A stretch of 64,000 nucleotides of DNA. It comes from Candidatus Multivoradales bacterium. GTDB lineage: Bacteria > Acidobacteriota > Thermoanaerobaculia > Multivoradales > J023. The notes beneath the pieces were generated by a model, which saw nothing but the letters and a program-made list of their open reading frames with translations, made no database searches and was not told the DNA's origin. Shown in pieces: positions 18,482 to 32,907 of this stretch; the stretch's first letter is position 1; every line of letters begins with the position of its first letter. The stretch spans positions 4,352,001 to 4,416,000 of the forward strand of contig CBDFLE010000006.1 in assembly GCA_965248925.1 (NCBI GenBank), given 5' to 3'. The position numbers and the translations under genes were made by a program.

Positions 18482-18739
18482 CCAGTCACTCTATCGCCTA
18501 TCGCGCCATCGGATGCAGCAGAGGCGCCGCCGAAGGAGGGTGGCGAGTCGTGCACCGCTCCTCCAGCTAGTAGTCACCCCAGCCGCCCGACCTGACGTAA
18601 TCATCTGCCTCCACCCCGATCTCGGATCGCATGACCTTTGAGTTGTCGTTGTTGGAAGCAGAAGCAAGGTAGAGGAGAAATGGGTTGTTTGAACAGGGCT
18701 TGCCGTCGGGCGGGGACGAGGTCTACCAGGGTCCGTGCC

Positions 18740-19946
18740 GTTTCGGTTCACTGAAGGCGGGCCGCTGGCGACGTTGAACCAGGCGCCGTTTGGAATGTCT
18801 TCAGATGCGTTATATTCGCGGCAACTTTTCATGCGCTCCGGAAGCGCCCGCAGAGGTTTTTTTGCAAGATGAGTGATGGTCGGCGAAAATTGCGCAGTGT
18901 GTGTGTTTTTTGTGGTTCTAGCGAGGGGCGGGCAGCGGTTTACCGCTCCGCTGCCCAGAATCTTGGCCGATTGCTGGCGAAGCGCCGGCTGGAGCTGGTC
19001 TACGGCGGCGGCAGCGGCGGCCTGATGGGGTGCATTGCCGACGCGGCGCTGGCTGCCGGTGGCCGGGTGGTGGGGGTGATTCCTCGCGCCATGCTCGAAT
19101 GGGAGGTCGAGCACCGCCAGCTCGACGAACAGCATGTGGTGGGCTCGATGCATGAGCGCAAGGAGAAAATGCACCAGCTGTCGGATGCCTTCATCGCCAT
19201 GCCGGGAGGCCTGGGGACCCTGGAGGAGCTGTTTGAGATCTGGACTTGGCTCCAGCTCGGGGTGCATGGCAAGCCGGTGGCCTTGCTCAATGTCGAGGGC
19301 TATTGGGATCCGATGATCACCATGCTCGACCGGGCCACCGAACAAGGATTCATCAAGCTCGAACAGCGCCGGACGTTGATTGTCGAGGCGGAAGGCGAAG
19401 CTATCTTGGATCGCTTCGCAGATTTTCGCGACCCCCGGCTGCGACAATGGAACGATGGTGGCACCGGTGACGGCGCCGATTCTCAACCTCTCGACTCTGG
19501 AGATTCGTAATGCGATTTTTCGCCTCGCTGCTGGTTTCGCTTTCGCTTTTGTTACTGCTGGCCCACTGCGGGCAGCCAGATGGCGGTCACTCTGCAGCTA
19601 GCGCCGCACTCGACGCTGATCTGCGGGCGGTCGCGGTGGAGCTGCGCGACAGCTCTGCCGAGCGCTCGCAAGCCTATGAGTTTCTGCGTCAGCTGACTTC
19701 CGAAGTGGGGGCGCGGCCCGCAGGTTCGCCGGCCGACTCTCTGGCGGTGGCTTGGGCGGTGGCCAAGCTCGAGGAGATGGGTTTCGAAAATGTCCGCGCT
19801 GAGTCGGTGACCGTTCCCCATTGGCGGCGCGGTGAGGCGGCCGCGTCGCTGTTGGCGCCGGTGGCGGAGGAGCTGGTGGTGGTGGCGTTGGGGGGCAGCG
19901 TTGGCACCGCGGCAGGCGGGCTCGAAGCAGAAGTGGTGGAATTTCC
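18740..19946 (+). repeat. 1207-bp direct repeat, copy 1 (left island boundary)
   Basis: Colinear with 30695-31901 (offset 11955 at both ends), with scattered substitutions. Confidence 0.95.
18869..19510 (+). CDS. LOG family nucleotide phosphoribohydrolase (TIGR00730-like), copy 1
   Basis: VCVFCGSS, LVYGGG, MHERK, PGGLGTLEE. Confidence 0.92.
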   Translation: MSDGRRKLRSVCVFCGSSEGRAAVYRSAAQNLGRLLAKRRLELVYGGGSGGLMGCIADAALAAGGRVVGVIPRAMLEWEVEHRQLDEQHVVGSMHERKEKMHQLSDAFIAMPGGLGTLEELFEIWTWLQLGVHGKPVALLNVEGYWDPMITMLDRATEQGFIKLEQRRTLIVEAEGEAILDRFADFRDPRLRQWNDGGTGDGADSQPLDSGDS

Positions 19947-21321
19947 ACTCATAATGTGCCTGGCACCTCTTCTGGCAGATTCACTGAAGCAAAAGGCTAG
20001 AGCAGCCCTTGCGAATAAGAGATACAAAGATGCCGGGGAACTGTACGAACGGCTTCTAGAATTCCAGATCGAGAACTTTGGAGAAGAAGATATCCAAACG
20101 GCTACGACGCTCAATAACTTAGCCGCGTCTAACGAAGCGCAGGGTCGCTACGAGAGTGCCGAAGCCCTGTATCACCGAGCGCTGGAGATCCGGGAACACC
20201 TTCTCGGGCCAGATCACCCCGAGGTGGCGACGACACTGAACAACCTTGCTGCCCTTTACGAAGCGCAGGGTCGCTACGACAGCGCTGAAGACCTGTACCA
20301 CCGGGCGCTGGAGATTCGGAAACGCCTTTTCGGTCCAGACCACCCCGAGGTGGCGACGACACTGAACAACCTTGCTGCCCTTTACGAAGCGCAGGGTCGC
20401 TACGACAGTGCTGAAGCCCTGTACCACCGGGCGCTGGAGATTCGGGAACTCCTTCTCGGTCCAGACCATCCCGAAGTGGCGACGACGCTGAACAACCTTG
20501 CTGCCCTTTACGAAGCGCAGGGTCGCTACGAGAGTGCCGAAGCCCTGTATCACCGAGCGCTGGAGATTCGGGAACGCCTTCTCGGTCCAGACCACCCCGA
20601 AGTGGCGACGACACTGAACAACGTTGCTGCCCTTTACGAAGCGCAGGGTCGCTACGAGAGTGCCGAGGCCCTGTATCACCGAGCGCTGAAGATTCGGGAA
20701 CGCCTTCTCGGTCCAGACCACCCCGAAGTGGCGACGATACTGAACAACCTTGCTGCCCTTTACGAAGTGCAGGGTCGCTACGAGAGTGCCGAGGCCCTGT
20801 ATCACCGAGCGCTGAAGATTCGGGAACGCCTTCTCGGTCCAGACCACCCCGAAGTGGCGACGACGCTGAACAACCTTGCTGCCCTTTACGAAGCGCAGGA
20901 TCGCTACGAGAGTGCCGAAGCCCTGTATCACCGAGCGCTGGAGATTCGGGAACGCCTTCTCGGTCCAGACCACCCCGAAGTGGCGACGACACTGAACAAC
21001 CTTGCTGCCCTTCACGAAGCGCAGGGTCGCTACGAGAGTGCCGAAGCCCTGTATCACCGAGCGCTGGAGATTCGGGAACGCCTCATCGGCCCAGACCACC
21101 CTGATGTAGCTGTATTGCTTAACAATCTGGCTGGCTTATCCGCCAAAATCGGCCAACTAGATAGAGCAAATATGTTATATGACCGAGGTTTGGCAATTAT
21201 GAGAAAAGTGTTCGGAGACAACCACCGAAACACTGCGATAATACGTGCGAATAGACTTGCGTTGCAGTCGTCAGCACCTAACAAAGGCATACAGCGGACC
21301 CGCGAAGACGCGGGCCGCTGA
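19510..21321 (+). CDS. Chimeric ORF: M28 peptidase N-terminus with lipoprotein signal fused in frame to a TPR array
   Basis: Matches 31465-32907 up to EVVEFP, then LIMCLAPLL (27-bp site), then 42-aa TPR repeats. Confidence 0.8.
   Translation: [603 protein letters not shown]
19948..19974 (+). repeat. 27-bp junction repeat, copy A
   Basis: CTCATAATGTGCCTGGCACCTCTTCTG, identical to 21530-21556; core palindrome GTGCC-T-GGCAC. Confidence 0.95.
20100..21130 (+). repeat. Tandem 126-bp coding repeats (42-aa TPR), about 8 copies
   Basis: [42 protein letters not shown] repeated with near nucleotide identity. Confidence 0.95.
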
Positions 21322-21336
21322 TGCCTAACGTTAGGT
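21276..21336 (+). mobile_element. Integron attC site
   Basis: ACCTAAC (RYYYAAC) ... GTTAGGT (GTTRRRY) enclosing the imperfect palindrome GGCATACAGCGGACCCGCG/CGCGGGCCGCTGATGCC with unpaired bases; overlaps the TPR stop. Confidence 0.85.
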
Positions 21337-21409
21337 GTCGCAGAGACACCCGCTAAGCGAAGCCGACGCACCGAATCTCAGGGTGCAAGAAACTGCCTGA
21401 ACAGTGAGC

Positions 21410-21559
21410 ATGCGAGACCCACTCCTCTTCGTGTCCTACTCTCGCGCTGACTCGGATCGCGTCGTTCCACTCGTAGATGCGCTAGGGACTCAAGGGATCC
21501 CGTGTTGGCAGGATCGTCGTGAGATACCGCTCATAATGTGCCTGGCACCTCTTCTGTAG
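21410..21559 (+). pseudogene. Truncated TIR-domain 5' fragment
   Basis: MRDPLLFVSYSRADSDRVVPLVDALGTQGIPCWQDRREIP (FxSYSxxD...WxD TIR start), then LIMCLAPLL* from the 27-bp site. Confidence 0.75.
21530..21556 (+). repeat. 27-bp junction repeat, copy B
   Basis: Identical to 19948-19974. Confidence 0.95.
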
Positions 21560-21776
21560 CAGAACGCGATGACGTTCTCGTCGACCGTGGTACTTTTCTG
21601 CATGGCGTAACCTCCTTTCGCCGTTCTGGCGAAGTCATTTGCTGATTGGAGGTTACGCCATTTTCAGAAACTCTACAGGACGCGGGACGGATCCACTTAC
21701 GCTCAATGCTTGCTCTCCTGATCCGCAAGATGCCCGGCACTAATTCCCGACGTTAGTGGGAAGTATCCTTCAGGCC

Positions 21777-24218
21777 TCAGCGAGAACGCAAGGTCTCGCT
21801 CGGCGACAGCGTGCTCAGGCTGCGGGCCGGACGGTAGTAGGCTAAGAACGCGGTCACGAAGGTCAGCATCGGCACGACGCTGAAGACCAGCGCATCGCGG
21901 GTACCGATCTCGTACACCAGGCTGGCCAGGGCACGCTCGGCGTAGAGGGCGAGGCCGAGGCCAGAAACGGTGCCGATCAGGCTGACGACGAACCCCTGCT
22001 TGGCGATCAAGGTGAAGACCTGCCGCGGTGTTGCGCCCAGCGCCATCCGGATACCCGCCTCGCGCTGGCGCAGCTCGGCGAGGCATCGCATGACGCCATA
22101 GGTACCGATTTGGGTGAGAAAGAGGGCGATTGCGGCGAACACGCTCACCAGCAACAAGCTGAATCGCTGGGGAGCGATGGCCCTGCTGTAGGTCCGCTCC
22201 AGTGTGGTCCCGTTGGCCAAGGGTACCTCCGGATCGAGGCTGCGAAGCACGCTGCGCAGGGAGGGCATGAGCGCCAGGGGGTCGTCCAGGTCGGTCTTGA
22301 TAGCCAGAGTGGTGAACATGTAGCAGCGCTGCTGGTACGGCAGGTAGATGTAGGGCCGGGCGGTCTCCTCGAAAACGTCCTGCTGCACCGTGCCGACCAC
22401 GCCGACCACGGTCAGCGGGTCGTCGCTGGCGATGCGGATCGTCTGGCCGAGCGGTTCCTCGCCGCGGAAGTACTGCTGCACCATCCGCTGGTCGATGATC
22501 GCCACCAGCGGCATGTCGGCGGTATCTGTGGCCTGGAGCAGTCGGCCTTGCAAGAGCGGGATGCCGAGTGTTTCGAAGTACTCGGCGTTCACCAGTCCAA
22601 GATTGGCCGACTGTCTCTCACCAGCCTCAAGGGGCGTTCGGCCGTCGATCCTGAAACCGTTGGATGGGTTGACCCCGGTCAGTGGCAGACCATAGTTCAT
22701 GCCGGCCGAGGTCACCCCCGGCACGGCCCGCACCTCCTGGAGCAACGCCTGCAAAAAAGCGACTTTGCGGCCGGTGTCTCGATACCGCGAGAAGGGCAGG
22801 AAGAGTTCGAAGGTGACCACCTTCTCCACCGCAAAGCCGAGATCGGCGTGCGACAGCCGCACGAAGCTCCGCGCCGACAGGCCCATGCCGATCAAAAGTG
22901 TCGTGGTCAGCGCGATCTGGCTGACGACGAGAAGGCTGAGCGCCAACCTAGAGCGTCGGGTGAGCTTCGCGCGCCCCTCGCGCAAACCGGCCGCGGCGTC
23001 GATCCGGCTGGCGCGCACGGCCGGCAGCAGTCCGGAGAGCAGACCGGCGATCAGCGACACGACCAGAGTGAAGGCCACTATCCGGCCGCCCAGGGCCGGC
23101 GCGTAGCTGTGCAAGACGTTCACCGGTGCCAGTACGAGCAACAGGCGGTTGGCGGCATAGGCGACGGGCAAGGCCAGCGCTCCGCCGAGGAGGGCGACGA
23201 CGACGCTCTCGAGCAGTGAGCGGGCGACGATGCGCCCCCGGCTGGCGCCGAGCGCGAGACGGACGGCGACGTCCTGCTGCACGGCCTGGCCGCGGGCCAT
23301 GAGCAGTATGGCGAGATTGGTGCAGGCGATCAGCAAGACGAAGCTGGTGGCCGCCCACAGCGCCAGCAACACCGGCCGCAGCGGCGTGAAGATCTGATCG
23401 CGCAGCGACACGACCTGGAGGTCGAAGCCTTGGTCGCTGGCTGGATACTGCACCGCCGCCTGCTCGGCATAGGCACTGGCTTCGGCCTGCGCCACGGCGA
23501 CGCTGGTGCCGGGCTGCAATCGTGCCATGGTGACAAGGCTGTGGAAGCCTCTCTCGTGCTCTTGCTCGCCCAGGCGCAGCGTCGCCCAGAGATCGACCGG
23601 CGGCGACAGGCGTGGGTCGGACGCGGCCAGACTCTCGGTGAAGCGAAAGTCGTCGGGCAGCACGCCGACCACGGCGTACTCTCGGCGGCCGAGGCGCAGC
23701 TTCCTGCCGAGCACTTCCGGATCGCCTCCGAGCTGCTGCTGCCAATAGCGGTGGCTGATGACCACCACCCGATCGGCATCTGGCCTAACGTCTTCCGGTC
23801 CCAAGGGGCGTCCGCGCACCGTTCGGATCCGCAAAAGAGGGAAGAAGTCACCGGTCACCGACAGCAGGTGGACACGTCGCGGCTCGCCCTCGCTGGTCAC
23901 CGTCACCTGCTCCGAGACCAGCGCCGCAATCCGCTCGAAGCTGGTGGCTGAAGTGTGCAGATCGGTGAACACGCCGGGCGGTAACGGCAATCGGGCAGGC
24001 GGCTGGGGCTGGTCGCTCGGCACAGCCACCCGCCAGATCATCACCAGGCGCTCGGCTGCCTCGTAGGGCAGCGAGGATAGTAGGAAGCGATCGATCAGGG
24101 AGAACATCGCCGTCGACGCGCCGATGCTGATCGCCAGCGTGGTCGCGGCAACCACCACGAAGGGCCCACGGCGGCGCAGGCCGCGCACGGTGGCCCCGAA
24201 CTCGCCGAGCAGGCTCAT
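21777..24218 (-). CDS. ADOP-family duplicated MacB/FtsX-type ABC permease
   Basis: TLAISIGASTAMFS, LLIACTNLAILL, VRLALGASRGRI, LLVVSQIAL, GIRMALGA; ATG overlaps the upstream stop (ATGA). Confidence 0.88.
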   Translation of the reverse strand: MSLLGEFGATVRGLRRRGPFVVVAATTLAISIGASTAMFSLIDRFLLSSLPYEAAERLVMIWRVAVPSDQPQPPARLPLPPGVFTDLHTSATSFERIAALVSEQVTVTSEGEPRRVHLLSVTGDFFPLLRIRTVRGRPLGPEDVRPDADRVVVISHRYWQQQLGGDPEVLGRKLRLGRREYAVVGVLPDDFRFTESLAASDPRLSPPVDLWATLRLGEQEHERGFHSLVTMARLQPGTSVAVAQAEASAYAEQAAVQYPASDQGFDLQVVSLRDQIFTPLRPVLLALWAATSFVLLIACTNLAILLMARGQAVQQDVAVRLALGASRGRIVARSLLESVVVALLGGALALPVAYAANRLLLVLAPVNVLHSYAPALGGRIVAFTLVVSLIAGLLSGLLPAVRASRIDAAAGLREGRAKLTRRSRLALSLLVVSQIALTTTLLIGMGLSARSFVRLSHADLGFAVEKVVTFELFLPFSRYRDTGRKVAFLQALLQEVRAVPGVTSAGMNYGLPLTGVNPSNGFRIDGRTPLEAGERQSANLGLVNAEYFETLGIPLLQGRLLQATDTADMPLVAIIDQRMVQQYFRGEEPLGQTIRIASDDPLTVVGVVGTVQQDVFEETARPYIYLPYQQRCYMFTTLAIKTDLDDPLALMPSLRSVLRSLDPEVPLANGTTLERTYSRAIAPQRFSLLLVSVFAAIALFLTQIGTYGVMRCLAELRQREAGIRMALGATPRQVFTLIAKQGFVVSLIGTVSGLGLALYAERALASLVYEIGTRDALVFSVVPMLTFVTAFLAYYRPARSLSTLSPSETLRSR

Positions 24219-25867
24219 CGCGGCTCTCCCACGGCGGGTGGCATCGCCGCAAGGAAGGGTCGCCAAGAGGCTGGAGTCGCCTCGCCCGCGGGCGGGTCGA
24301 GGTCTAGCAGACGGTCGAAGCGGTCGTGGAACTCGTCGTCGCCGTGCATGATTACCATCAAGGTCTTGCCCTGCGTGGATTCGAGAATGGCGTGCATCAC
24401 GGGGCCTTTGCTGGCGACGTCGATGCCTGCCAATGGCTCGTCAATGATATACACATCCGCCGTTTTGAGCAGGGCCATCAACACCTCAAGCCGTTTACGC
24501 TGACCGGCGGAAAGCTCAGAGGGTTTCTTATCCAGAATTTCGCCGATACCCAGGTCACTCGACAGTTGCTCAAGGCGAACCTGCTGCTCCGAGCCGACGA
24601 AAGAAAGGTTGTCGCGCACCGTCCCCGGAATGAAGTCGTGGGGCAAGACCACGGCGCTGATCCGATCCAGCGGGTAGGTGGTAGTGACCCCGCTGGTCGG
24701 CTGCAGCAGACCGCAGATGAGGTGCGCGAGAGTGCTTTTGCCGCTGCCGTTGGCGCCGATGATGAGAATGCGCTCCCCCGGCTCGGGTGCGAGTGTGAGA
24801 TCCGAGAACACCTGATGATTGGTGTAGCCGAAGTCGATATGGTCGAGCTCGATCCGGTGCCCGTAGCGTACCTTCGGGAGGTCGACTTCCAGTGCCTCGA
24901 ACTCCCGCAGGCGCTCAGCCATGCCGCTGGCGCGCGACAGCTCGGGCACCAGCCCGAACACCCCGCGCACCGCCCCCATGACGGCCCAGAACGCGCTCAT
25001 AAAGCCCACGTAGCCGCCGAACGTCATGCGGCCGCTGAGGATTTCGTAGCCGGCAGCAACAATCGCGATATTCTCGACATAGGACATGAAGATGCCGCTC
25101 AGCATCTCGTAGCGGCTGGAGGTCTTGAAGCGCGCGAAGAACGCGTTGATGTATTCGCGAACCTGATCGCTCACCTTGCGCTGAGCTTGAGCCTCCAACT
25201 GGAAGATACGTGCCGTCTTATAAGAGCCCACCGCGCGCTCCAACACGCCGCGGACCTTCGCCTCCTCCTCCTGCTCCGCCATCGACTCGCGCTTGATCTT
25301 GTTGCCGTACTTCTGTGACAGGACATAGAGTACGGGCACGGCGATCAGCACCATCAGCGTGGCCCGCACGGAGATCGACAGGGCCACCGTAAGGGCGACA
25401 ACCAGCGTCACGAGCATGTTGCTCATCATTAGGGTGGTATCGATGACCAGCGCCGCGGTGGCCGAGACCTCGTCGAAGATGCGTGACAGGAAGTAGCCGC
25501 GGTCACGCTGGATCACTTCGCCGTAGGGAATCTTGTAGTACTTCCGAAGCATACTCTCGCTGAGCTGCGCGAAGACCGCGTTCTTCAGCCGCTGGGTATA
25601 GAGGCGGTAGACGAAAACACCCACCCGCCAGAGGGTGAAGATCGCAACGAAGCCGACGCTGATCAAGGCAAAGCGTTGAAAATTCTGCCGGATAATGCCC
25701 TCGTCGAAGAGATACTTTAGAGCGAGCGGGTTGGCCGCGCTGACGAAACCGTTGGACAGCAGCCCGAATAACAAGCAGGCGACGAACCAGCGCCGATTGC
25801 CGCGGACGGTGTACGTGAGGATGTCGAGCCAGTGGGCGATGGGGATCTTGATTTTCTTGTCCGTCAT
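24215..25867 (-). CDS. ABC exporter (TM + ATPase), LanT-like
   Basis: N-terminal TM helices; GANGSGKST, LSAGQRKR, IIDEP; directly downstream of lanKC. Confidence 0.88.
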   Translation of the reverse strand: MTDKKIKIPIAHWLDILTYTVRGNRRWFVACLLFGLLSNGFVSAANPLALKYLFDEGIIRQNFQRFALISVGFVAIFTLWRVGVFVYRLYTQRLKNAVFAQLSESMLRKYYKIPYGEVIQRDRGYFLSRIFDEVSATAALVIDTTLMMSNMLVTLVVALTVALSISVRATLMVLIAVPVLYVLSQKYGNKIKRESMAEQEEEAKVRGVLERAVGSYKTARIFQLEAQAQRKVSDQVREYINAFFARFKTSSRYEMLSGIFMSYVENIAIVAAGYEILSGRMTFGGYVGFMSAFWAVMGAVRGVFGLVPELSRASGMAERLREFEALEVDLPKVRYGHRIELDHIDFGYTNHQVFSDLTLAPEPGERILIIGANGSGKSTLAHLICGLLQPTSGVTTTYPLDRISAVVLPHDFIPGTVRDNLSFVGSEQQVRLEQLSSDLGIGEILDKKPSELSAGQRKRLEVLMALLKTADVYIIDEPLAGIDVASKGPVMHAILESTQGKTLMVIMHGDDEFHDRFDRLLDLDPPAGEATPASWRPFLAAMPPAVGEPR

Positions 25868-25956
25868 TGCGGGCCGCGCATGGAAGCCATAGTGAAGGCC
25901 CGTGCCGGGCCGAGATGCTCTTCGCTCATCACTTGCCGAGGCAGCGGGCACCTGCG

Positions 25957-28679
25957 CTAGGGCGCCAACGCCAGCAGCTCCGCGTCGGTGCCCGCCGACC
26001 GGGTCGTGAGCAGCTCGTCGACCACCAGAGGGGTCGGACCACCGTGAATCAAGCGGTGATAGAAACGCCCGACGCCGACGCTTCCCGTGGCCAGGTCACA
26101 GCAGATCTTGTTGAGAAAATCGCCGGGAAATGCCAGCCCCTCCGGCCGTTCGATCCGGAACAGAGACAGGCCGGTGGCGACCCGATACGCGGCCTCGCGG
26201 AAGCGCGCTTCACCGGTGAAGTGATGAAAATCTAGCAGGGTTTCGCCGAGGCCGGTCAAGCCGATGAAGAGGCCTGGAAATACCGCGTATTTGCGCTCCA
26301 GATCGAGGAAGATCTTCTCGAGGTACTCCCCGTAGCGTTCGGGTCCCAGCAGGCTGTAGTAGCGGATCAAGGCCATGCCGACCCCGGCGCTGCCATGCTT
26401 CCAGTAAGGGTAGATGATGCTGTGGTCGTCGTCCTGCCGGCGCCAGGACAATCCGCCGTCGGGCGTTTCGACACCCGAGCTCAGGTCGTAGTCGAGAGCC
26501 TTGATCCCGGCGTCAAGCAACTCCTCGCGACCGCAGGCACAGTAGAGGTACAAGAGGAACAGGCTAATGCCGCTACCACCGTGGGCTAGACCGAGCGAAA
26601 TGACCCCGTCGGTCTTCCCAGTACAGGCCCTTCTCGCTCGTCTGCGCTGCGGCCAGCAGATGCTCACCGGCGGCGATCGCCTTGCCCAGATAGAAATCGT
26701 CGTCGAGGGCCAGAAAGAACTTGAGATTGGCCATGCCCCAACCGGCGGCGCCATGGAAGAAATCGTAGGCGGTGCCATCGCTCTTGGTGACCAGCGGATG
26801 TTCGTGGCAACGGGCCATGATCCGCCGCGCGGGTTCCGTTCGGCCCAGGTCGATCAGGGCCCAGGCGATGCCCGAGAGCCCGGCGTAGAGCCCTGGAGGA
26901 TAAGTGTCGCGGTCGCTGGTCGGTTGCAAGATCCAGTCGAGAACCCGATCCGGTACCGCGCGTCCCATGGTGTGCATTGCGTGGGCGACGCCGCACGCAC
27001 CGTAGGCCAGGCTGAGCGGGTTGGAGTGGAAGACCTCGGCGAAGGCCGGGAACAGACGGTCCTTGCGATCGTAGTCGGCAAGTGCGAGACAGTAGTCACA
27101 CACGCGGTCGATGGTCTCCTGGTAGGTGGGGTTGGCGCTTTCATCATCCACTTGGATGGACGGCGGACGCAGGGTGTACTCGCCCTCCAGGACCTCGATC
27201 ACTTGCTGCGGCTTGGGCCGGCTACCGAAATCGTTCTCGATCAACGCCACGATCATCTCGTGGACCTCGCGCGGGAAACCGATGTCCTCGACCGCCGAGC
27301 GCAAGAAAGTGAACCGTGAACGGGGGGCGATGGCGAAAATCTGATTGAACGGCGCCAGGAAGTAGTGCATCACCGCACCGAGGGAGAAGTAATCGCTCTC
27401 GAAGTTAGACACCTCGCCGTACACCTGGTCGCGGTAGGCAAAGCCAGGCGTGTAGAGGAAGGCGGGCTTGTCGACACCGAGTTCGGAGGCACCTTCGAAG
27501 TCGATAATGCGCACTCGCAGCGGCTCGGTGAGGACGATGACGTTGTTGGGAGAAAGATCAGAGAAGACGATGCCGTGCTCGTGCAAGATCCTCACTATCT
27601 GGGCAAGCTGCACGAAGATCGCCCGGAAGTCGGCAAAGAACTTCGCCGTGTCCTCGAGCGTCGGCCGAGTCCGCAGGGTGACGTTGTTGATCGCGGAGAA
27701 CGTGGTGAGAGAAACCCCTTGGATGAACTCCTGCACCAGGAAGTAATGTTCCCAATCCTGGAACAGGTCGATCGGCTTCGGCGCTACGTTGGCGCCGGTC
27801 GCCGCGACCAGGGAAAGAATGCGGTACTCCTTCTTGAGCTAGGGAGATGGAGTCCTCGGTGTAGGTGACGAAAGGCCGCGCCTCCTTGATCACCACTTCC
27901 TCACCGGTCTCGGTGTCGTCGGCGATGTAGACTCCGCCCGAGTTGGAGTAGCCCAGCACATTCTTGACCAGATAGCGGCCGTCCTTGAGCGCGATGCGAC
28001 CTTCTTCGTCCTGGTAGTCAGGCTCGTGCTTGAGGTCGTCCGCGAAGGGGTCGCGCGCCCAGCTCGGGACGTGGAAGTAGGGCCGCCGCTCGTCGGGGAC
28101 CATCTCGCCGGACGGCGAGATCAGCATCGGGGTCTGTTCGCCCCTGGCGTTCGCCACCGCGATCCGCCGGATTCCCCCATAGCGATAGAACAGGATCTTG
28201 CTGTCCTTGTAGCGCCGGTCGGAAAGGATGTAGATGCCTTCGAACGCCCTTGTGACTGCGTGCAGATCGGCGAGCAGACGGAAGAACTCCGCCTCATCTA
28301 CGGGATAGATGGTCACGAACTTGCCGGCAGCCTGGCGTCCCCAGTTCTTGCTGTTCATCATACCCAGGATTTGCCGATCGAGAGCGAACTTGAAATCCAC
28401 GTCCTGCGCGTCAAGCACGGGAACGATCGCCTCAAGGATGTCGAGGGCGTTGGACAGCGCGCAGGACACATGGATCTTCCAGCCCTGACCGGGAAGATCG
28501 CGGGCCCGCCCTTCCGGCGGCGTGCAACCGAACCAGACCGCGCGCCGGTGGAAAGTCCAGGTGCCGGTAAGCATCTTGCGCACCGGCGCGAGAAAGTCAT
28601 CTTCGTTGACGTCGTACCGATCGACCGTCTCGTAGAAGAGCGGGTCGACAAAGGCCTCCAACGCGGTGACACGGCTCAT
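25957..28679 (-). pseudogene. lanKC: Class III lanthipeptide synthetase LanKC, split by two +1 frameshifts (~27840, ~26618)
   Basis: Lyase GWKIHVS, GKFVTIYP, SDRRY, YRYGG; kinase VVIKEAR, HGIVFSDLSPNN, IIDFE; cyclase YWKHGSAG, GLFIGLTG, DLATG without the Zn-ligand WCHG/CHG motifs. Confidence 0.88.
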
Positions 28680-28835
28680 CGATTCTCCTCAACCACGGGT
28701 GGTGAACCAGGGAAGAGCCAGAGATAGCCACAGACCCTGTCAGGTTGCGCTGCCAGGGCGTCGCATGGCATGAGCGCCACGAGACGCCGCCAGCCGCAAC
28801 GAGAACGCGGCCGGCGGGACGAGTTTCGGTCGCCG

Positions 28836-28991
28836 CTACCAGGCGAACAGACCTTTATTGTCTACACACTGGCTGCTCTGGGTTGAGCAGGCCGTGGTCG
28901 CCGACGAACAGTGGTTGCTCTCGCCGCTGAAGACAGCTTCAAGGCTAAGTGCGGTGCCGACAAGGCCTTGTAGTGAGAGGATCCTGTGCAT
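28836..28991 (-). CDS. Class III lanthipeptide precursor A2 (51 aa)
   Basis: RBS AAAGGAG; leader ILSLQ; core SGESNHC-SSATTAC-STQSSQC-VDNKGLFAW. Confidence 0.88.
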   Translation of the reverse strand: MHRILSLQGLVGTALSLEAVFSGESNHCSSATTACSTQSSQCVDNKGLFAW

Positions 28992-29191
28992 AAACGTGCT
29001 CCTTTGGGTTGTTGGGTTCCTGTCGCTCGAATCCGCCAAACCTTAGGGCGGCCCGAACTCCTGTTGGTGCCGTTTCCTTTTCTGGTCGGAAAACACCAGC
29101 AAACAAAGCGAGATCGGAGTTCCGATCCAGCTCTCGCCGCCGCCGGTGGCTGCAACGAAAATGCGGCCGGCGGGCCGGACTTCGGTCGCTG

Positions 29192-29347
29192 CTACCAGGC
29201 GAACAGACCCTTATTGTCTACACGCTGGTTGCTCTGGGTTGAGCAGGCCGTGGTCGCCGACGAGCAGTAGTTGCTCTGGTCGCTGTAGACAACTTCAAGG
29301 CTAAGTGCGGTGCCAATCAAGCCTTGCAATGCGAGGATCCTGTCCAT
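29192..29347 (-). CDS. Class III lanthipeptide precursor A1 (51 aa)
   Basis: RBS AAAGGAG; leader ILALQ; core SDQSNYC-SSATTAC-STQSNQR-VDNKGLFAW. Confidence 0.88.
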   Translation of the reverse strand: MDRILALQGLIGTALSLEVVYSDQSNYCSSATTACSTQSNQRVDNKGLFAW

Positions 29348-30298
29348 AACGTGCTCCTTTGGGTTGTTAGGTTCCTGTTTGCCCGAATCCGCCAAGCCTT
29401 AGAGCGGTCCAAACTCCGGTTGGTGCCGATTTCTTTTCTGGTTGGAAACCACCAGCAAACCTAGCGAGATCGGAATTCTGCCGGCAGCATCCTCTGTTCT
29501 GCTGACACCATCAGCTTTGAGTCGAACACTGCGCGGTCTCCGGCGAGCATTTTGTTCTTGCCGTGGCCAGCGACGGCATCGTCGCCAATCGCCCGCCTGC
29601 TCGTTTACGGCAATGCAAGCCGCTTCTTCAATTCGGATGCCTTGTGTTGCTCATCCCGTACTCCATGATTATTGCAACCCTCCTTTGTAGATTGAGAAGA
29701 CACACATCACCAACCCGGCGCACGGCGCCGCGTTTGAGTGCACGTTACCAGCGCGGCGCGTGCGCCGACTCGCCGAAAACCACGCGGAGGATATGGTCTT
29801 TGACTAGAGGCACGCCGCGCGGACCGACAGATCGGCACGGGCAATGTTCCAGGTTGTGGGATGGTCAGAAAGAATATTTTTAAAAATCCTCCAAATCCTA
29901 GAGTGACGACCGGATCTCGAAGGTCCGATCGAGATTTCATGACCGCAAGCTCGCAGGCCTCAGGAGCGAGGGTACATATTTTGTAGGGAAAACTATATCA
30001 TATGGGTTCATATGAAAGCAACGATCTCAGGAGAAATCCTCTCGAGACACCAGCTCCCGATACACCTGCGTCTCGCCAATACTCTGTCCGCCAGTAGAAT
30101 CAGAGAGGTGCAGCCCATAGGCGCCAACGCATACTTCTCTTCTCGGAGGTCTTCGTAGGGCATGATCGAGCCATGATCCGCGCTCTCCTAGCTTCCCTAC
30201 TTGGCTCCAGAGCCGACTTCGCCCTCCGGCAGATCCAGCCCCCGCCGCTTCGCCATCTTGGCTGCGACGTGCTCGAAGACGCGAGCAAACGCCCCAAA

Positions 30299-30325
30299 TG
30301 GAGCTACCCCGGTTTGGTGGACAGT
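30299..30325. mobile_element. Isolated IS3-family-like terminal inverted repeat
   Basis: TGGAGCTACCCCGGTTTGGTGGACAGT resembles IS3-family ends (TG...CCCC...GTGGACA); no partner end or transposase. Confidence 0.4.
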
Positions 30326-30694
30326 TTATCTCTTCGAACCTCCGTCAAAGTGGGGGTGTGGGAGCTGCTGTCCTGCCTCGCGGTTAGGTTGGACCCAAGA
30401 TGGCGTATTTCTTGTGAGTGTTGCTTTTCTTGCCCTACGTGCCCTCATCATTAGGCGACCGGCCGCTGGATGTCTCCGCCGAGCTATAGGCCACCCCAAG
30501 AGGACCCCAAGCTCCTGCATCACCACCAGCGTCCCGCATCCAAGCACCAAGAAGACACAGCCGAACATGCTCCTTGTCCTCATTCCTACAGTCGAAGGCG
30601 GTGGATGACCGCTCCTTCAACCTCGCTACCGCCTCGACGAAGCGATCGCCGGACCGGGGATCGACCCACCACCGTATTCGGCCGCCCATCAGCT

Positions 30695-31901
30695 GTTTCG
30701 GTTCGCTGAAGCCGGGCCGCTGGCGACGTGGGGCCAGGTGTCGTTTGGAATGTTCTCGGATGCGTTATATTCGCGGCAACTTTTCATGCGCTCCGGAAGC
30801 GCCCTCAGAGGCTTTTTTGCAAGATGAGTGATGGTCGGCGAGGTTTGCGCGGTGTGTGTGTTTTTTGTGGTTCTAGCGAGGGGCGGGCAGCGGCTTACCT
30901 CACCGCTGCCCAGAATCTCGGCCGATTGTTGGCGGAGCGCCGGCTGGAGCTGGTCTACGGCGGCGGCAGCGGCGGCCTGATGGGGTGCATTGCCGACGCG
31001 GCGCTGGCTGCCGGTGGCCGGGTGGTGGGGGTGATTCCTCGCGCCATGCTCGATTGGGAGGTCGAGCACCGCCAGCTCGACGAACAGCATGTGGTGGGCT
31101 CGATGCATGAGCGCAAGGAGAAAATGCACCAACTGTCGGATGCCTTCATCGCCATGCCGGGAGGCTTGGGGACCCTGGAGGAGCTGTTTGAGATCTGGAC
31201 TTGGCTCCAGCTCGGGGTGCATGGCAAGCCGGTGGCCTTGCTCAATGTCGAGGGCTATTGGGATCCGATGATCACTATGCTCGACCGGGCCACCGAGCAA
31301 GGATTCATCAAGCTCGAACAGCGCCGGACGTTGATTGTCGAGGCGGATGGCGAAGCTATTTTGGATCGCTTCGCAGATTTTCGCGACCCCCGGCTGCGAC
31401 AATGGAACGATGGTGGCACCGGTGACGGCGCCGATTCTCAACCTCTCGACTCTGGAGATTCGTAATGCGATTTTTCGCCTCGCTGCTGGTTTCGCTTTCG
31501 CTTTTGTTACTGCTGGCCCACTGCGGGCAGCCAGATGGTGGTCACTCTTCAGCTAGCGCCGCACTCGATGCTGATCTGCGAGCGGTTGCGGTGGAGTTGC
31601 GCGACAGCTCTGCCGAGCGCTCTCAGGCTTATGAGTTTCTGCGTCAGCTGACTTCTGAGGTGGGGGCGCGGCCCGCGGGTTCGCCGGCCGATTCTCTGGC
31701 GGTGGCTTGGGCGGTGGCCAAGCTCGAGGAGATGGGTTTCGAAAATGTCCGCGCTGAGTCGGTGACCGTTCCCCATTGGCGGCGCGGCGAGGCGGTCGCA
31801 TCGCTGTTGGCGCCAGTGGCGGAGGAGCTGGTGGTGGTGGCGCTGGGGGGCAGCGTTGGAACCGCGGCGGGTGGAGTCGAAGCCGAAGTGGTGGAATTTC
31901 C
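30695..31901 (+). repeat. 1207-bp direct repeat, copy 2 (right island boundary)
   Basis: Colinear with 18740-19946. Confidence 0.95.
30824..31465 (+). CDS. LOG family nucleotide phosphoribohydrolase, copy 2
   Basis: Same length and motifs as copy 1 with a few amino-acid changes. Confidence 0.92.
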   Translation: MSDGRRGLRGVCVFCGSSEGRAAAYLTAAQNLGRLLAERRLELVYGGGSGGLMGCIADAALAAGGRVVGVIPRAMLDWEVEHRQLDEQHVVGSMHERKEKMHQLSDAFIAMPGGLGTLEELFEIWTWLQLGVHGKPVALLNVEGYWDPMITMLDRATEQGFIKLEQRRTLIVEADGEAILDRFADFRDPRLRQWNDGGTGDGADSQPLDSGDS

Positions 31902-32907
31902 GTCTCTTGAGGCCTTGGAGGAGGAGGTGGCTGCGGAGCGGGTGGCAGGCAAGATTGTCTTCATCAACAAACGCATGCAGCGCAAGCGCGACGGCGCGGA
32001 CTATGGCCCAGCGGTGCAGGGGCGGGTCCACGGCGCTTCGCGGGCGGCGGAAAAAGGAGCTCTGGCGGTGGTTATTCGCTCGGCCGGCACCGCCACCGAA
32101 CGGGTGGCCAACACCGGTACGATGATCTACGCCGAGGGGGTGCCGCAGATTCCAGCGGCGGCACTGTCGAACCCCGATGCCGATCGGCTTGAGGAACTGC
32201 TCGCCGAGGGCGCGGTGCGATTGCGTCTCGAACTCGGTTGCGAGACTCTGCCGGACGAGCAATCGGCCAATGTCATCGGTGAGATTCCCGGCGGCGAGTC
32301 TCCCGAAGAGATTGTGCTGCTAGCGTGCCATCTGGACTCGTGGGGTCTTGGCGAAGGGGCCATCGACGATGGTCTGGGCTGTGCGACGATCACCGAGGCA
32401 GCGCGCCTGGTGGGCCAGTTGCCGCGCCATCCGCGGCGCACCCTGCGGGTGCTCCTAGCCGCCAACGAAGAGTTTGGACTTTCCGGTGCCAAGGCCTATG
32501 GGGTGGCCCATGCTGACGAACTCGACCGCCATGTGGTGGCGATGGAGTCAGATTTTGGCGTCGGCTGGGTGTGGACTTTGCGTTCGCGGGTCGATCCGGC
32601 GTTCGCGCCGACAGTGGCGGCGATTGCCGAAGTTCTCGAGCCGCTGGGCATCGCCTGGGATCAGCAGCAACCCGCATATGGCGGTGCCGATTTGAGTCCC
32701 CTGCGCCCCGCCGGAGTGCCGATGTTCGACCTGCCGGGGGACAGCACGCACTACTTCGACTATCACCACAACGCCAATGACACCTTTGCCGCGGTCGACA
32801 AAGAAGGGCTCGACCAAGCGGTTGCCGCCTGGGCGACGATGAGCTACATCCTGGCCGAACACGAGCCTGGTTTTGGCCGGGTACCACCGTCCGAGGACGG
32901 TCACTGA
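31465..32907 (+). CDS. M28 family metallopeptidase (carboxypeptidase Q-like), probable lipoprotein, intact
   Basis: Lipobox-like LLAHC; PA domain; HLDSW, GAIDDG, NEEFGL, MESD, YHH. Confidence 0.9.
   Translation: MRFFASLLVSLSLLLLLAHCGQPDGGHSSASAALDADLRAVAVELRDSSAERSQAYEFLRQLTSEVGARPAGSPADSLAVAWAVAKLEEMGFENVRAESVTVPHWRRGEAVASLLAPVAEELVVVALGGSVGTAAGGVEAEVVEFPSLEALEEEVAAERVAGKIVFINKRMQRKRDGADYGPAVQGRVHGASRAAEKGALAVVIRSAGTATERVANTGTMIYAEGVPQIPAAALSNPDADRLEELLAEGAVRLRLELGCETLPDEQSANVIGEIPGGESPEEIVLLACHLDSWGLGEGAIDDGLGCATITEAARLVGQLPRHPRRTLRVLLAANEEFGLSGAKAYGVAHADELDRHVVAMESDFGVGWVWTLRSRVDPAFAPTVAAIAEVLEPLGIAWDQQQPAYGGADLSPLRPAGVPMFDLPGDSTHYFDYHHNANDTFAAVDKEGLDQAVAAWATMSYILAEHEPGFGRVPPSEDGH

What the first reader, a model, noticed from the sequence alone, without database searches (positions are those of the whole stretch)
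19948..21556. Circularly permuted integron cassette integrated through a non-attC 27-bp site
Seen: between two identical 27-bp sites the order is TPR 3' half, attC, TIR 5' end. Joining the two sites gives a 1582-bp circle with one attC and one continuous ORF (MRDPLLFVSY...[20 protein letters not shown]...TPR...stop in attC); both junctions are in the same frame. The attC ends pair perfectly over 8 bp (CACCTAAC/GTTAGGTG). Known: integron cassettes excise as circles whose attC core sites come from the same cassette and tend to be complementary, and TIR-TPR architectures are common. Inference: an excised cassette circle carrying one 27-bp site integrated Campbell-style at a second copy, far from any intI. 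This would be a route for moving cassettes outside integrons and fusing them to host genes.
Basis: partly seen in the sequence, partly recalled or inferred. Interest (0 to 1): 0.9.

Follow-up and report, generated by a model that had tools for sequence, protein, structure and literature searches.

The report
Integron fragment bracketed by REP-like repeats
A 1.6-kb scrap of integron DNA, with a genuine attC site but only broken genes, sits between two copies of a short palindromic repeat that is scattered about 57 times through this genome, so the "27-bp site" is a dispersed repeat rather than a one-off integration site.

Summary
There are two exact 27-bp direct repeats (19948-19974 and 21530-21556). 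Between them lie a TPR 3' part, an attC hairpin and a TIR 5' end. Short-read contigs from four runs of one sample bridge both junctions.

The attC is genuine. A covariance model built from it and four natural homologues finds cassette arrays beside integron integrases in other genomes of the phylum. This genome has no such integrase and only one other, weaker attC-like site.

The interpretation needs revision on two points.
- **The site is not unique.** It belongs to a family of 57 copies (core cATAAKGTGCCTGGCACCTnTT) at 17 loci. Copies within a locus always point the same way and often form scrambled arrays. The same core flanks a RAYT-type Y1 transposase gene in Bacillus caseinilyticus and ends a RAYT-like gene here.
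- **The continuous ORF is a frame coincidence.** All four flanks of the two copies are truncated: an M28 peptidase, the TPR gene, the TIR gene (35 of 122 profile positions) and an IS256-family transposase.

Whether the insert is one permuted cassette or two neighbouring cassettes remains open. The patch lies at the edge of a 12-kb segment flanked by 1.2-kb diverged duplicates.

The parts
18737..19946 (+). R1: diverged duplicate (95.5%) of the LOG-family gene plus the first 146 codons of an M28 peptidase. The peptidase copy is cut off at 19946.
   Evidence: Window self-BLAST pairs 18737-19946 with 30692-31901. The intact paralogue at 31465-32907 has PA and Peptidase_M28 domains. There are 54 differences; in the peptidase part 21 are synonymous and 3 non-synonymous.
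19948..19974 (+). REP-like site, copy 1. It has the core GTGCC-T-GGCAC and is a sister of copy 2.
   Evidence: It is a member of the 57-copy family, and its 27-mer variant occurs only in these two copies.
19975..21321 (+). 3' part (448 aa) of a TPR_12/TPR_10 repeat gene with nine 126-bp repeat units. Its stop codon lies inside the attC. It is fused in frame to the peptidase stub.
   Evidence: The best homologues are at most 63% identical and are generic CHAT/NB-ARC/TIR-TPR proteins.
21276..21336 (+). attC site: R'' ACCTAAC, R' GTTAGGT, an internal loop, and two single-base bulges on the R''-L'' arm.
   Evidence: Fold z -9.4/-10.1. It is the best of 48 candidates in my crude genome scan. It is homologous to attC sites in 5 other genomes of the phylum. 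Model R1 scores it 78.8 bits and finds arrays beside IntI elsewhere.
21410..21529 (+). First 40 codons of a TIR-domain gene, the start of the next cassette, about 70 nt after the attC crossover point.
   Evidence: TIR_2 at 26.3 bits, profile positions 2-35 of 122. The nearest relatives are 39-63% identical.
21530..21556 (+). REP-like site, copy 2. Its left flank TACCG is shared with the array at G000:C6:2177247-2177500.
   Evidence: A 26-nt identity to the array copies appears.
21557..21694 (-). Remnant of the 5' end of an IS256-family element. It holds a leader hairpin (21602-21661) and the first 15 codons of the transposase, cut off by site copy 2.
   Evidence: Homology to G000:C6:5004316-5004412 and two other copies. 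The intact copy carries Transposase_mut. Hairpin fold z -9.2.
21777..30691 (.). Rest of the accessory segment. It carries a MacB/FtsX-type permease, an ABC exporter, a RamC-like class III lanthipeptide synthetase split into three overlapping ORFs, two tandem 338-bp repeats and 1.2 kb without matches.
30692..31901 (+). R2: the second copy of the LOG-peptidase segment. It continues into the intact peptidase gene.
   Evidence: The R2 allele and its continuation GTCTCTTGAGG are seen in Logan contigs (table 7).

Best explanation
The two 27-bp sites are sister copies of a dispersed REP-like palindromic repeat. They bracket a 1.55-kb fragment of foreign integron DNA: the end of a TPR gene, its genuine attC, and the first 40 codons of the TIR gene of the next cassette.

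Shown:
- The site belongs to a repeat family of 57 copies.
- The attC is authentic.
- All four sequences abutting the two copies are truncated.
- Both junctions exist in the reads.

Inferred:
- Recombination at one REP copy placed the fragment there and left the REP duplicated on both sides. The same process would have produced the other same-orientation REP arrays and the REP-bracketed gene fragments elsewhere in this genome.
- The most likely enzyme is the RAYT-type Y1 (HUH) transposase whose gene ends in a copy of this repeat. It would act on single strands as IS200/IS605 transposases do. REP-provoked illegitimate or short-homology recombination by host enzymes would give the same product.
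- The fragment is more likely a contiguous piece of a linear cassette array than a permuted single cassette, but this is not settled.

The whole patch sits at the left edge of a roughly 12-kb accessory segment that looks like a Campbell-type insertion by homologous recombination through a 1.2-kb LOG-peptidase segment from a relative about 95% identical.
For: **Repeat family**
- GTGCCWGGCAC occurs 70 times, against 3-47 for seven control palindromes.
- 57 copies share cATAA(T/G)GTGCCTGGCACCTnTT, in 28 distinct 27-mer variants. The window's variant is found only in its two copies.
- The copies lie at 17 loci, 11 of them with more than one copy. Every locus has a single orientation. Arrays contain half-site duplications.
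- In the nine loci mapped, the arrays lie in gaps between long ORFs.

**RAYT link**
- In B. caseinilyticus a 193-aa Y1_Tnp ORF (42.9 bits) is flanked on both sides by inverted pairs of the same core.
- In this genome a 313-aa Y1_Tnp protein (30.7 bits against a cut-off of 23, with an HFH motif) has its stop codon inside a site copy. It occurs as 3 full and 2 partial copies.
- These three full copies are the only tblastn hits of the Bacillus RAYT in this genome.

**Truncated flanks**.

**Other bracketed or junction cases**
- A 2-kb segment lies between copies at C6:2382503 and 2384542, next to a truncated DUF480 gene.
- An RHS gene fragment lies between copies at C5:1440525 and 1443400.
- In 4 of 22 arrays or singletons the sequence abutting the site is a 93-96% duplicate of DNA 4-12 kb away.

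**attC**.

**Reads**.

**Campbell-type outer structure**. The third-position bias in the truncated peptidase copy shows that it diverged while it was still a working gene.

**Base rate for 'attC then TIR'**: the only other attC-like site in the genome is also followed by a TIR_2-like ORF.
Against: - The window's site folds weakly as single-stranded DNA (z -1.1 and +0.5), unlike classical REP hairpins.
- Copies here are never in the inverted pairs that define REPINs.
- The RAYT-like gene has a copy only at its 3' end; none was found within about 2.5 kb upstream.
- A GTAG tag is seen beside only a few copies.
- The Bacillus-to-local RAYT similarity is weak: 30% over 77 aa, E about 3e-6.
- Only 1 of 60 relatives has even one copy of the 17-mer, so the family cannot be traced by comparison.
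- No excision or empty-site form was seen, so no step of the mechanism has been observed.
- For a single permuted cassette: R'' and R' pair perfectly over 8 bp, while only 1 of the 4 homologous attC sites aligned does so. Also, 4 of the 10 nearest TIR relatives carry TPR repeats.
- In 2 of the 3 other flank duplications the differences are not concentrated at third codon positions, so the Campbell reading may not extend to those loci.
Confidence: 0.5

Rival explanations
1. A single TIR-...-TPR cassette, already carrying one copy of the repeat where its middle had been deleted, was excised as a circle by an integron integrase in a donor cell. It then integrated Campbell-style at a second copy of the repeat. 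This gives the permuted order site-TPR3'-attC-TIR5'-site.
For: The topology fits exactly. R''/R' pair perfectly over 8 bp, which is expected when both come from one cassette; only 1 of 4 homologous attC sites from other genomes does so. TIR with TPR repeats occurs in 4 of the 10 nearest TIR relatives and in several TPR homologues. Large cassettes exist in this attC family: a 5.3-kb cassette appears. The two site copies are identical and private to this locus.
Against: No integrase is present in this genome. The joined ORF would lack at least 87 of the 122 TIR profile positions, so an earlier deletion is needed as well. The peptidase is in frame too. 0 of 62 complete ORFs of the nearest TIR relatives resemble this TPR part. 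0 of 10 cassette ORFs sampled in related integrons are TIR or TPR. Excised cassette circles are rare and do not replicate (established knowledge). The model needs the same private repeat variant in both circle and target beforehand.
Confidence: 0.22
2. No dedicated enzyme is involved. The two copies and their truncated flanks are by-products of ordinary RecA-dependent or illegitimate recombination between short dispersed repeats, of the kind known for REP join-points of duplications. The RAYT-like gene is irrelevant.
For: 27 bp is about the minimum length for efficient RecA recombination (recalled from the literature, not checked). The outer 12-kb structure is explained by plain homologous recombination. 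No recombinase gene lies in or beside the segments examined.
Against: Half-site duplications that break at the centre of the palindrome and the strict single orientation in 11 of 11 multi-copy loci look like the work of a site- and strand-specific activity. Each locus has its own variant, so different loci share only about 17-19 nt of identity.
Confidence: 0.2
3. Assembly artefact. The patchwork arose from chimeric joins at a short repeat during assembly of a metagenome-derived genome.
For: The genome is specific to one sample. The repeat family is almost absent from the relatives searched. The lanthipeptide synthetase nearby looks frameshifted.
Against: k=31 contigs built independently of the assembly bridge both junctions without a difference in 4 of 4 runs, at the depth of the neighbouring DNA. 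The repeat (27 nt) is shorter than the word length. Family members occur in isolates and assemblies of other phyla.
Confidence: 0.03

Closest known systems
[quoted passage not shown]
   Same: A genuine attC with cassette-type ORFs in a genome without intI. Only one other, weaker attC-like site exists in the genome.
   Different: An IntI-made insertion is linearised at the attC, leaving the attC at the 3' end of an intact cassette. Here the attC is internal, both ORFs are truncated, and the boundaries are copies of a REP-like repeat.
REP / REPIN elements with their RAYT (Y1 HUH) transposases (PMC3116915 and PMC3337134 seen as search listing and abstracts; PMC3733652 passages)
   Same: A short palindromic core repeated tens of times and mostly lying between genes. 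The same core flanks a RAYT gene in another phylum, and a RAYT-like gene here ends in a copy.
   Different: There are no inverted doublets: all copies in a locus point the same way. The hairpin is weak, there is no consistent GTAG tag, and the RAYT-like gene is multi-copy (3 full copies). Copies bracket kb-sized cargo and abut truncated genes.
IS200/IS605 'peel and paste' transposition (PMC6006769, abstract only; details recalled)
   Same: A Y1 HUH enzyme, element ends carrying similar small hairpins in direct orientation, and strand-specific single-strand circles. These features would explain direct repeats around cargo and the uniform orientation.
   Different: No transposase gene lies between the two window copies. 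The left and right ends are identical rather than distinct. No target tetranucleotide was identified.
REP sequences as join-points of chromosomal duplications and of aberrant prophage excision (recalled from the older E. coli/Salmonella literature; no paper read)
   Same: Rearrangement junctions coincide with short dispersed palindromes.
   Different: Those cases join two existing REP loci. Here a REP copy abuts broken coding sequence on both sides.

Membership tests
Integron attC site | R'' (RYYYAAC) and R' (GTTRRRY) boxes that pair with each other | tested here: met
   ACCTAAC and GTTAGGT pair over 7 bp, or 8 with the flanking C-G. The consensus itself is recalled.
Integron attC site | A folded single strand with an unpaired central spacer, extrahelical bases on the R''-L'' arm and a terminal loop | tested here: met
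   The fold shows a 2/3-nt internal loop, two single-base bulges on one arm and a 4-nt loop. z is -9.4 and -10.1, with 0 of 200 shuffles as stable.
Integron attC site | Homologous sites form same-strand arrays at cassette spacing next to an integron integrase | tested here: met
   Model R1 gives 12, 6, 7 and 22 hits in four genomes of the phylum, in same-strand arrays. IntI exceeds the TIGR02249 cut-off in 3 of the 4, beside the hits.
Complete integron or CALIN in this genome | An intI gene, or at least 2 attC sites in a cluster | tested here: not met
   The best TIGR02249 match is 72 bits against 265. The 64-kb window holds one attC. The only other hit in the genome is about 580 kb away.
IntI-mediated attC x attG insertion | The cassette is linearised at the attC crossover, with the ORF intact and the attC at its 3' end | tested here: not met
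   The attC lies 1.3 kb inside the insert, and both ORFs are truncated.
Intact TIR-TPR gene after circular joining | A complete TIR domain followed by the repeat domain | tested here: not met
   Only TIR_2 profile positions 2-35 of 122 are present. 10 of 10 nearest relatives match from profile position 1 or 2 through position 92 or beyond, 9 of them through 111 or beyond.
REP / REPIN | A short imperfect palindrome in many copies, mainly extragenic | tested here: met
   57 copies. Arrays lie between long ORFs in the nine loci mapped. The two window copies are exceptions, sitting between broken ORFs.
REP / REPIN | Inverted doublets (REPINs) and a stable hairpin | tested here: not met
   Each of the 11 multi-copy loci has a single orientation. 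The site fold gives z -1.1 and +0.5.
REP / REPIN | A cognate RAYT gene flanked by the repeat | tested here: inconclusive
   B. caseinilyticus has copies on both sides of the gene. This genome has a copy at the 3' end only.
Campbell-type integration by homologous recombination (outer 12-kb segment) | Direct duplication of a host segment flanking the insert, with one intact and one truncated gene copy and alleles that diverged as working genes | tested here: met
   1210-bp repeats at 95.5% identity, an intact peptidase only at the right-hand copy, and 21 synonymous against 3 non-synonymous differences.

The most novel reading that the evidence does not exclude
A RAYT/REP system in this lineage does more than copy its own repeats. 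Pairs of direct REP copies act as ends that let the Y1 transposase lift out and re-insert arbitrary kb-sized DNA as single-strand circles. This would make a cassette-like shuffling system independent of integron integrases. Here it has moved integron cassette DNA into a genome without intI and built chimeric ORFs.
Probability: 0.17. Interest if true: 0.75.

Novelty: new variant of a known kind. Interest (0 to 1): 0.45.

Why it matters
- If REP copies can bracket and relocate cargo, integron cassettes and other accessory genes have a route into genomes that lack an integrase. That would explain some solitary attC sites without invoking IntI.
- It would also give REP/RAYT systems, usually seen as moving only themselves, a role in gene shuffling and in making fusion ORFs.
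- Practically, the 603-aa 'peptidase-TPR' ORF is a chimera and should not be annotated as a gene.
- The 27-bp repeat should not be read as a specific attachment site.

Tried and rejected
- **Unique-site idea.** The exact 27-mer gave 0 hits in genome contigs and 0 in metagenome contigs. The shorter core then revealed the family.
- **Adapter or barcode contamination.** I considered this because of the constant core with locus-specific flanks. I rejected it because k=31 contigs of four runs carry the junctions at normal depth and because copies occur in unrelated isolates.
- **Sigma-54 promoter and dif/Xer site resemblances** (both recalled). I rejected them because of the variable spacing, the 57 copies and the arrays. 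I ran no dedicated test.
- **A transposon with half-sites as its ends.** Of 17 isolated left half-sites, 9 lie in or next to the site arrays, 2 belong to degenerate full sites, and 6 stand alone with no sign of an element.
- **A linked recombinase.** None was found among the ORFs around nine arrays or inside the four flank-duplicated segments.
- **Rfam.** There was no attC match. The only hit was a chance miRNA match to the IS256 leader hairpin.
- **TIR fragment searches.** The word-based search gave nothing. blastp-short against the 120 TPR homologues gave nothing. In 400 genomes of the phylum only two weak hits appeared, at 38-39% identity.
- **TPR part.** Only generic repeat proteins at 63% identity or less were found.
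- **Excision or empty-site forms.** No joints appeared in the contigs of the four runs (table 5). The lines in table 5c are cross-matches from other arrays of the repeat. Contigs drop rare variants, so this says nothing either way.
- **Literature.** A full-text search for the core motif returned three unrelated papers, so I found no description of this repeat in the held library. The supplements of the papers cited are closed and may list REP families I could not see.
- **Codon-position test on the three other flank duplications.** The result was mixed.
Full report
**Observation.** The window holds an exact 27-bp direct repeat at 19948-19974 and 21530-21556, spaced 1582 bp. No other match with up to 3 mismatches exists in the window, and none was expected in shuffles. 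The 7.98-Mb, six-contig genome has only these two copies. Between them lie three features. The first is the last 448 codons of a TPR_12/TPR_10 repeat gene. The second is a 61-nt hairpin at 21276-21336 with ACCTAAC and GTTAGGT ends. The third is the first 40 codons of a TIR gene. Both ORFs read the repeat in the same frame. Logan contigs from four runs of one sample bridge both outer junctions without a difference, at the depth of the neighbouring DNA. The 27-nt repeat is shorter than the contigs' word length. The structure is therefore in the DNA and is not a product of the long assembly.

**The attC is genuine.**
- It folds far better than shuffles (z -9.4 and -10.1). It has paired R boxes, a small internal loop and two single-base bulges on one arm.
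- A crude genome-wide scan for complementary RYYYAAC/GTTRRRY pairs gave 48 candidates. This one was far the most stable per nucleotide.
- BLASTN of 21100-21529 against 400 sampled genomes of the same phylum matched only the hairpin, in five other genomes. One of them is unpublished and was not used further.
- I aligned the window site with four natural homologues and built a covariance model.
- The model finds 12, 6, 7 and 22 sites in four of those genomes, in same-strand arrays at cassette spacing.
- Three of the four genomes encode an integrase above the curated integron-integrase cut-off, next to such sites.
- The window's own genome has no such integrase; the best match is 72 bits against 265.
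- It has only one other model hit, at 38 bits and about 580 kb away. That site is also followed by a TIR_2-like ORF.

This is integron DNA in a genome without an integron, which is the known SALIN situation.

**The 27-bp site is a dispersed repeat.**
- Its core GTGCCWGGCAC occurs 70 times in the genome, against 3-47 for seven control palindromes.
- 57 copies share cATAA(T/G)GTGCCTGGCACCTnTT.
- They lie at 17 loci. In all 11 loci with more than one copy, every copy points the same way.
- Many loci are scrambled arrays in which half-sites, broken at the centre of the palindrome, are duplicated beside full sites.
- There are 28 distinct 27-mer variants, mostly locus-specific. The window's variant occurs only in its two copies, so these are sisters.
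- Only one of 60 relatives has even one copy of the 17-mer core.
- The 19-mer occurs in several copies in Bacillus caseinilyticus and in a deltaproteobacterial assembly. It occurs as tandem partial copies in acidobacterial and acidimicrobial assemblies.

**Link to a RAYT-type transposase.**
- In B. caseinilyticus a Y1_Tnp ORF is flanked on both sides by inverted pairs of this core. That is the arrangement that defines REP-RAYT units (literature).
- In the window's genome a 313-aa Y1_Tnp protein with the HUH motif has its stop codon inside a copy of the repeat. It occurs as three full and two partial copies.
- Those three copies are the only hits of the Bacillus RAYT in this genome, although the similarity is weak.
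- Against a classical REP reading: the window variant folds weakly, there are no inverted doublets, and no copy lies upstream of the local RAYT-like gene.

**All four flanks are broken.**
- Left of copy 1 is the first 146 codons of an M28 peptidase. Its intact paralogue lies 12 kb downstream.
- Right of copy 1 is a TPR gene without its 5' part.
- Left of copy 2 is a TIR gene cut at profile position 35 of 122.
- Right of copy 2, on the other strand, is the leader and first 15 codons of an IS256-family transposase.

The peptidase also runs in frame into the TPR part, so in-frame continuity through the repeat is not evidence of an ancestral gene. A circularised ORF would lack most of the TIR domain, which 10 of 10 nearest relatives have in full.

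**Other bracketed cases.** The repeat brackets or abuts gene fragments elsewhere in the genome.
- A 2-kb segment lies next to a truncated DUF480 gene.
- An RHS fragment lies between copies.
- In 4 of 22 arrays or singletons the DNA abutting the repeat is a 93-96% duplicate of DNA 4-12 kb away.

**Outer context.** 18737-19946 and 30692-31901 are 95.5% identical direct repeats. They enclose the patch together with a permease, an ABC exporter and a class III lanthipeptide cluster. In the truncated peptidase copy 21 of 24 differing codons are synonymous. The two copies therefore diverged as working genes. This fits a Campbell-type insertion of DNA from a relative by homologous recombination, with the repeat at the junction where the donor's peptidase had been broken.

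**One cassette or two?**

For one permuted cassette:
- R''/R' pair perfectly over 8 bp, as in only one of four homologous sites.
- TPR repeats follow TIR in 4 of the 10 nearest TIR relatives.
- A 5.3-kb cassette exists in this attC family.

Against it:
- 0 of 62 complete ORFs of the nearest TIR relatives resemble this TPR part. The positive control worked.
- No close TIR relative was found in 400 genomes.
- 0 of 10 sampled cassette ORFs are TIR or TPR.
- 'attC followed by TIR' recurs at the genome's other attC-like site.
- Excised circles are rare.

I rate a contiguous piece of a linear array as somewhat more likely, but this remains open.

**Mechanism.** The sister copies flanking the insert, the uniform orientation and the half-site scars point to a site- and strand-specific activity that duplicates the repeat when DNA is placed at it. 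A Y1 HUH transposase acting as in IS200/IS605 transposition is the best candidate. Host recombination at short repeats is the main alternative. No step of either has been observed.

**Verdict.** The feature is a new variant of known kinds: a solitary attC whose boundaries are REP-like repeats rather than IntI crossover points.

Noticed in passing
window 18737-31901: A 12-kb accessory segment is flanked by 1210-bp direct repeats at 95.5% identity. Only the right-hand repeat continues into an intact M28 peptidase. The differences are mosaic: dense at both ends and sparse in the middle.
   Followed up: partly
window 25957-28679 (-) and 28785-29478: A RamC-like class III lanthipeptide synthetase is read as three overlapping ORFs (RamC_N; kinase plus part of LanC; LanC). 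This could be two frameshifts or assembly indels. Next to it are two tandem 338-bp repeats at 87% identity, which may hold precursor genes.
   Followed up: no
G000:C6:4952518-4952582 (L086:1501-1565): A second solitary attC-like site (38 bits with model R1). A 257-aa TIR_2-like ORF starts about 480 bp downstream of it.
   Followed up: partly
G000:C5:923000-976000, C6:3501000-3518000 and elsewhere: At least 13 near-identical copies of a 372-aa tyrosine recombinase gene. Seven lie in one stretch at 7.5-12-kb spacing.
   Followed up: no
G000:C5:681882-716068 (L021-L023): Repeated units hold a 1576-1681-aa RHS gene, a variable downstream region, a copy of the REP-like repeat and the RAYT-like gene.
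   Followed up: partly
window 21602-21661: A 14-bp perfect inverted repeat (fold z -9.2) pairs the ribosome-binding site of the IS256-family transposase gene. Leader sequence homologous to this region, with some substitutions in the repeat arms, is present in three other copies of the element.
   Followed up: partly
G000:C6:1195567-1207382, C6:2380603-2384921, C6:1083527-1090580: Three further loci where a 0.4-0.7-kb host segment is duplicated at 93-96% identity on either side of an accessory segment. An array of the repeat abuts one copy in each case. Cargo includes a Ser/Thr kinase-TPR protein and a HipA toxin.
   Followed up: partly
G191:C14 (L097:1465-6820): A 5.3-kb integron cassette lies between two high-scoring attC sites. 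It holds a single 1752-aa ORF with helicase-type AAA domains and a C-terminal MTES_1575/DUF559 nuclease domain.
   Followed up: no
G000:C5:1066668-1078667 and C6:4642495-4654494 (L024, L025): Copies of the repeat lie directly beside a group II intron (RT-maturase ORF) and an IS21 element. The same pieces occur in a different order at the two loci.
   Followed up: no
window 56740 (G000:C6:4408740): An isolated left half-site (CATAAGGTGCC) without the right half. It may be chance.
   Followed up: no
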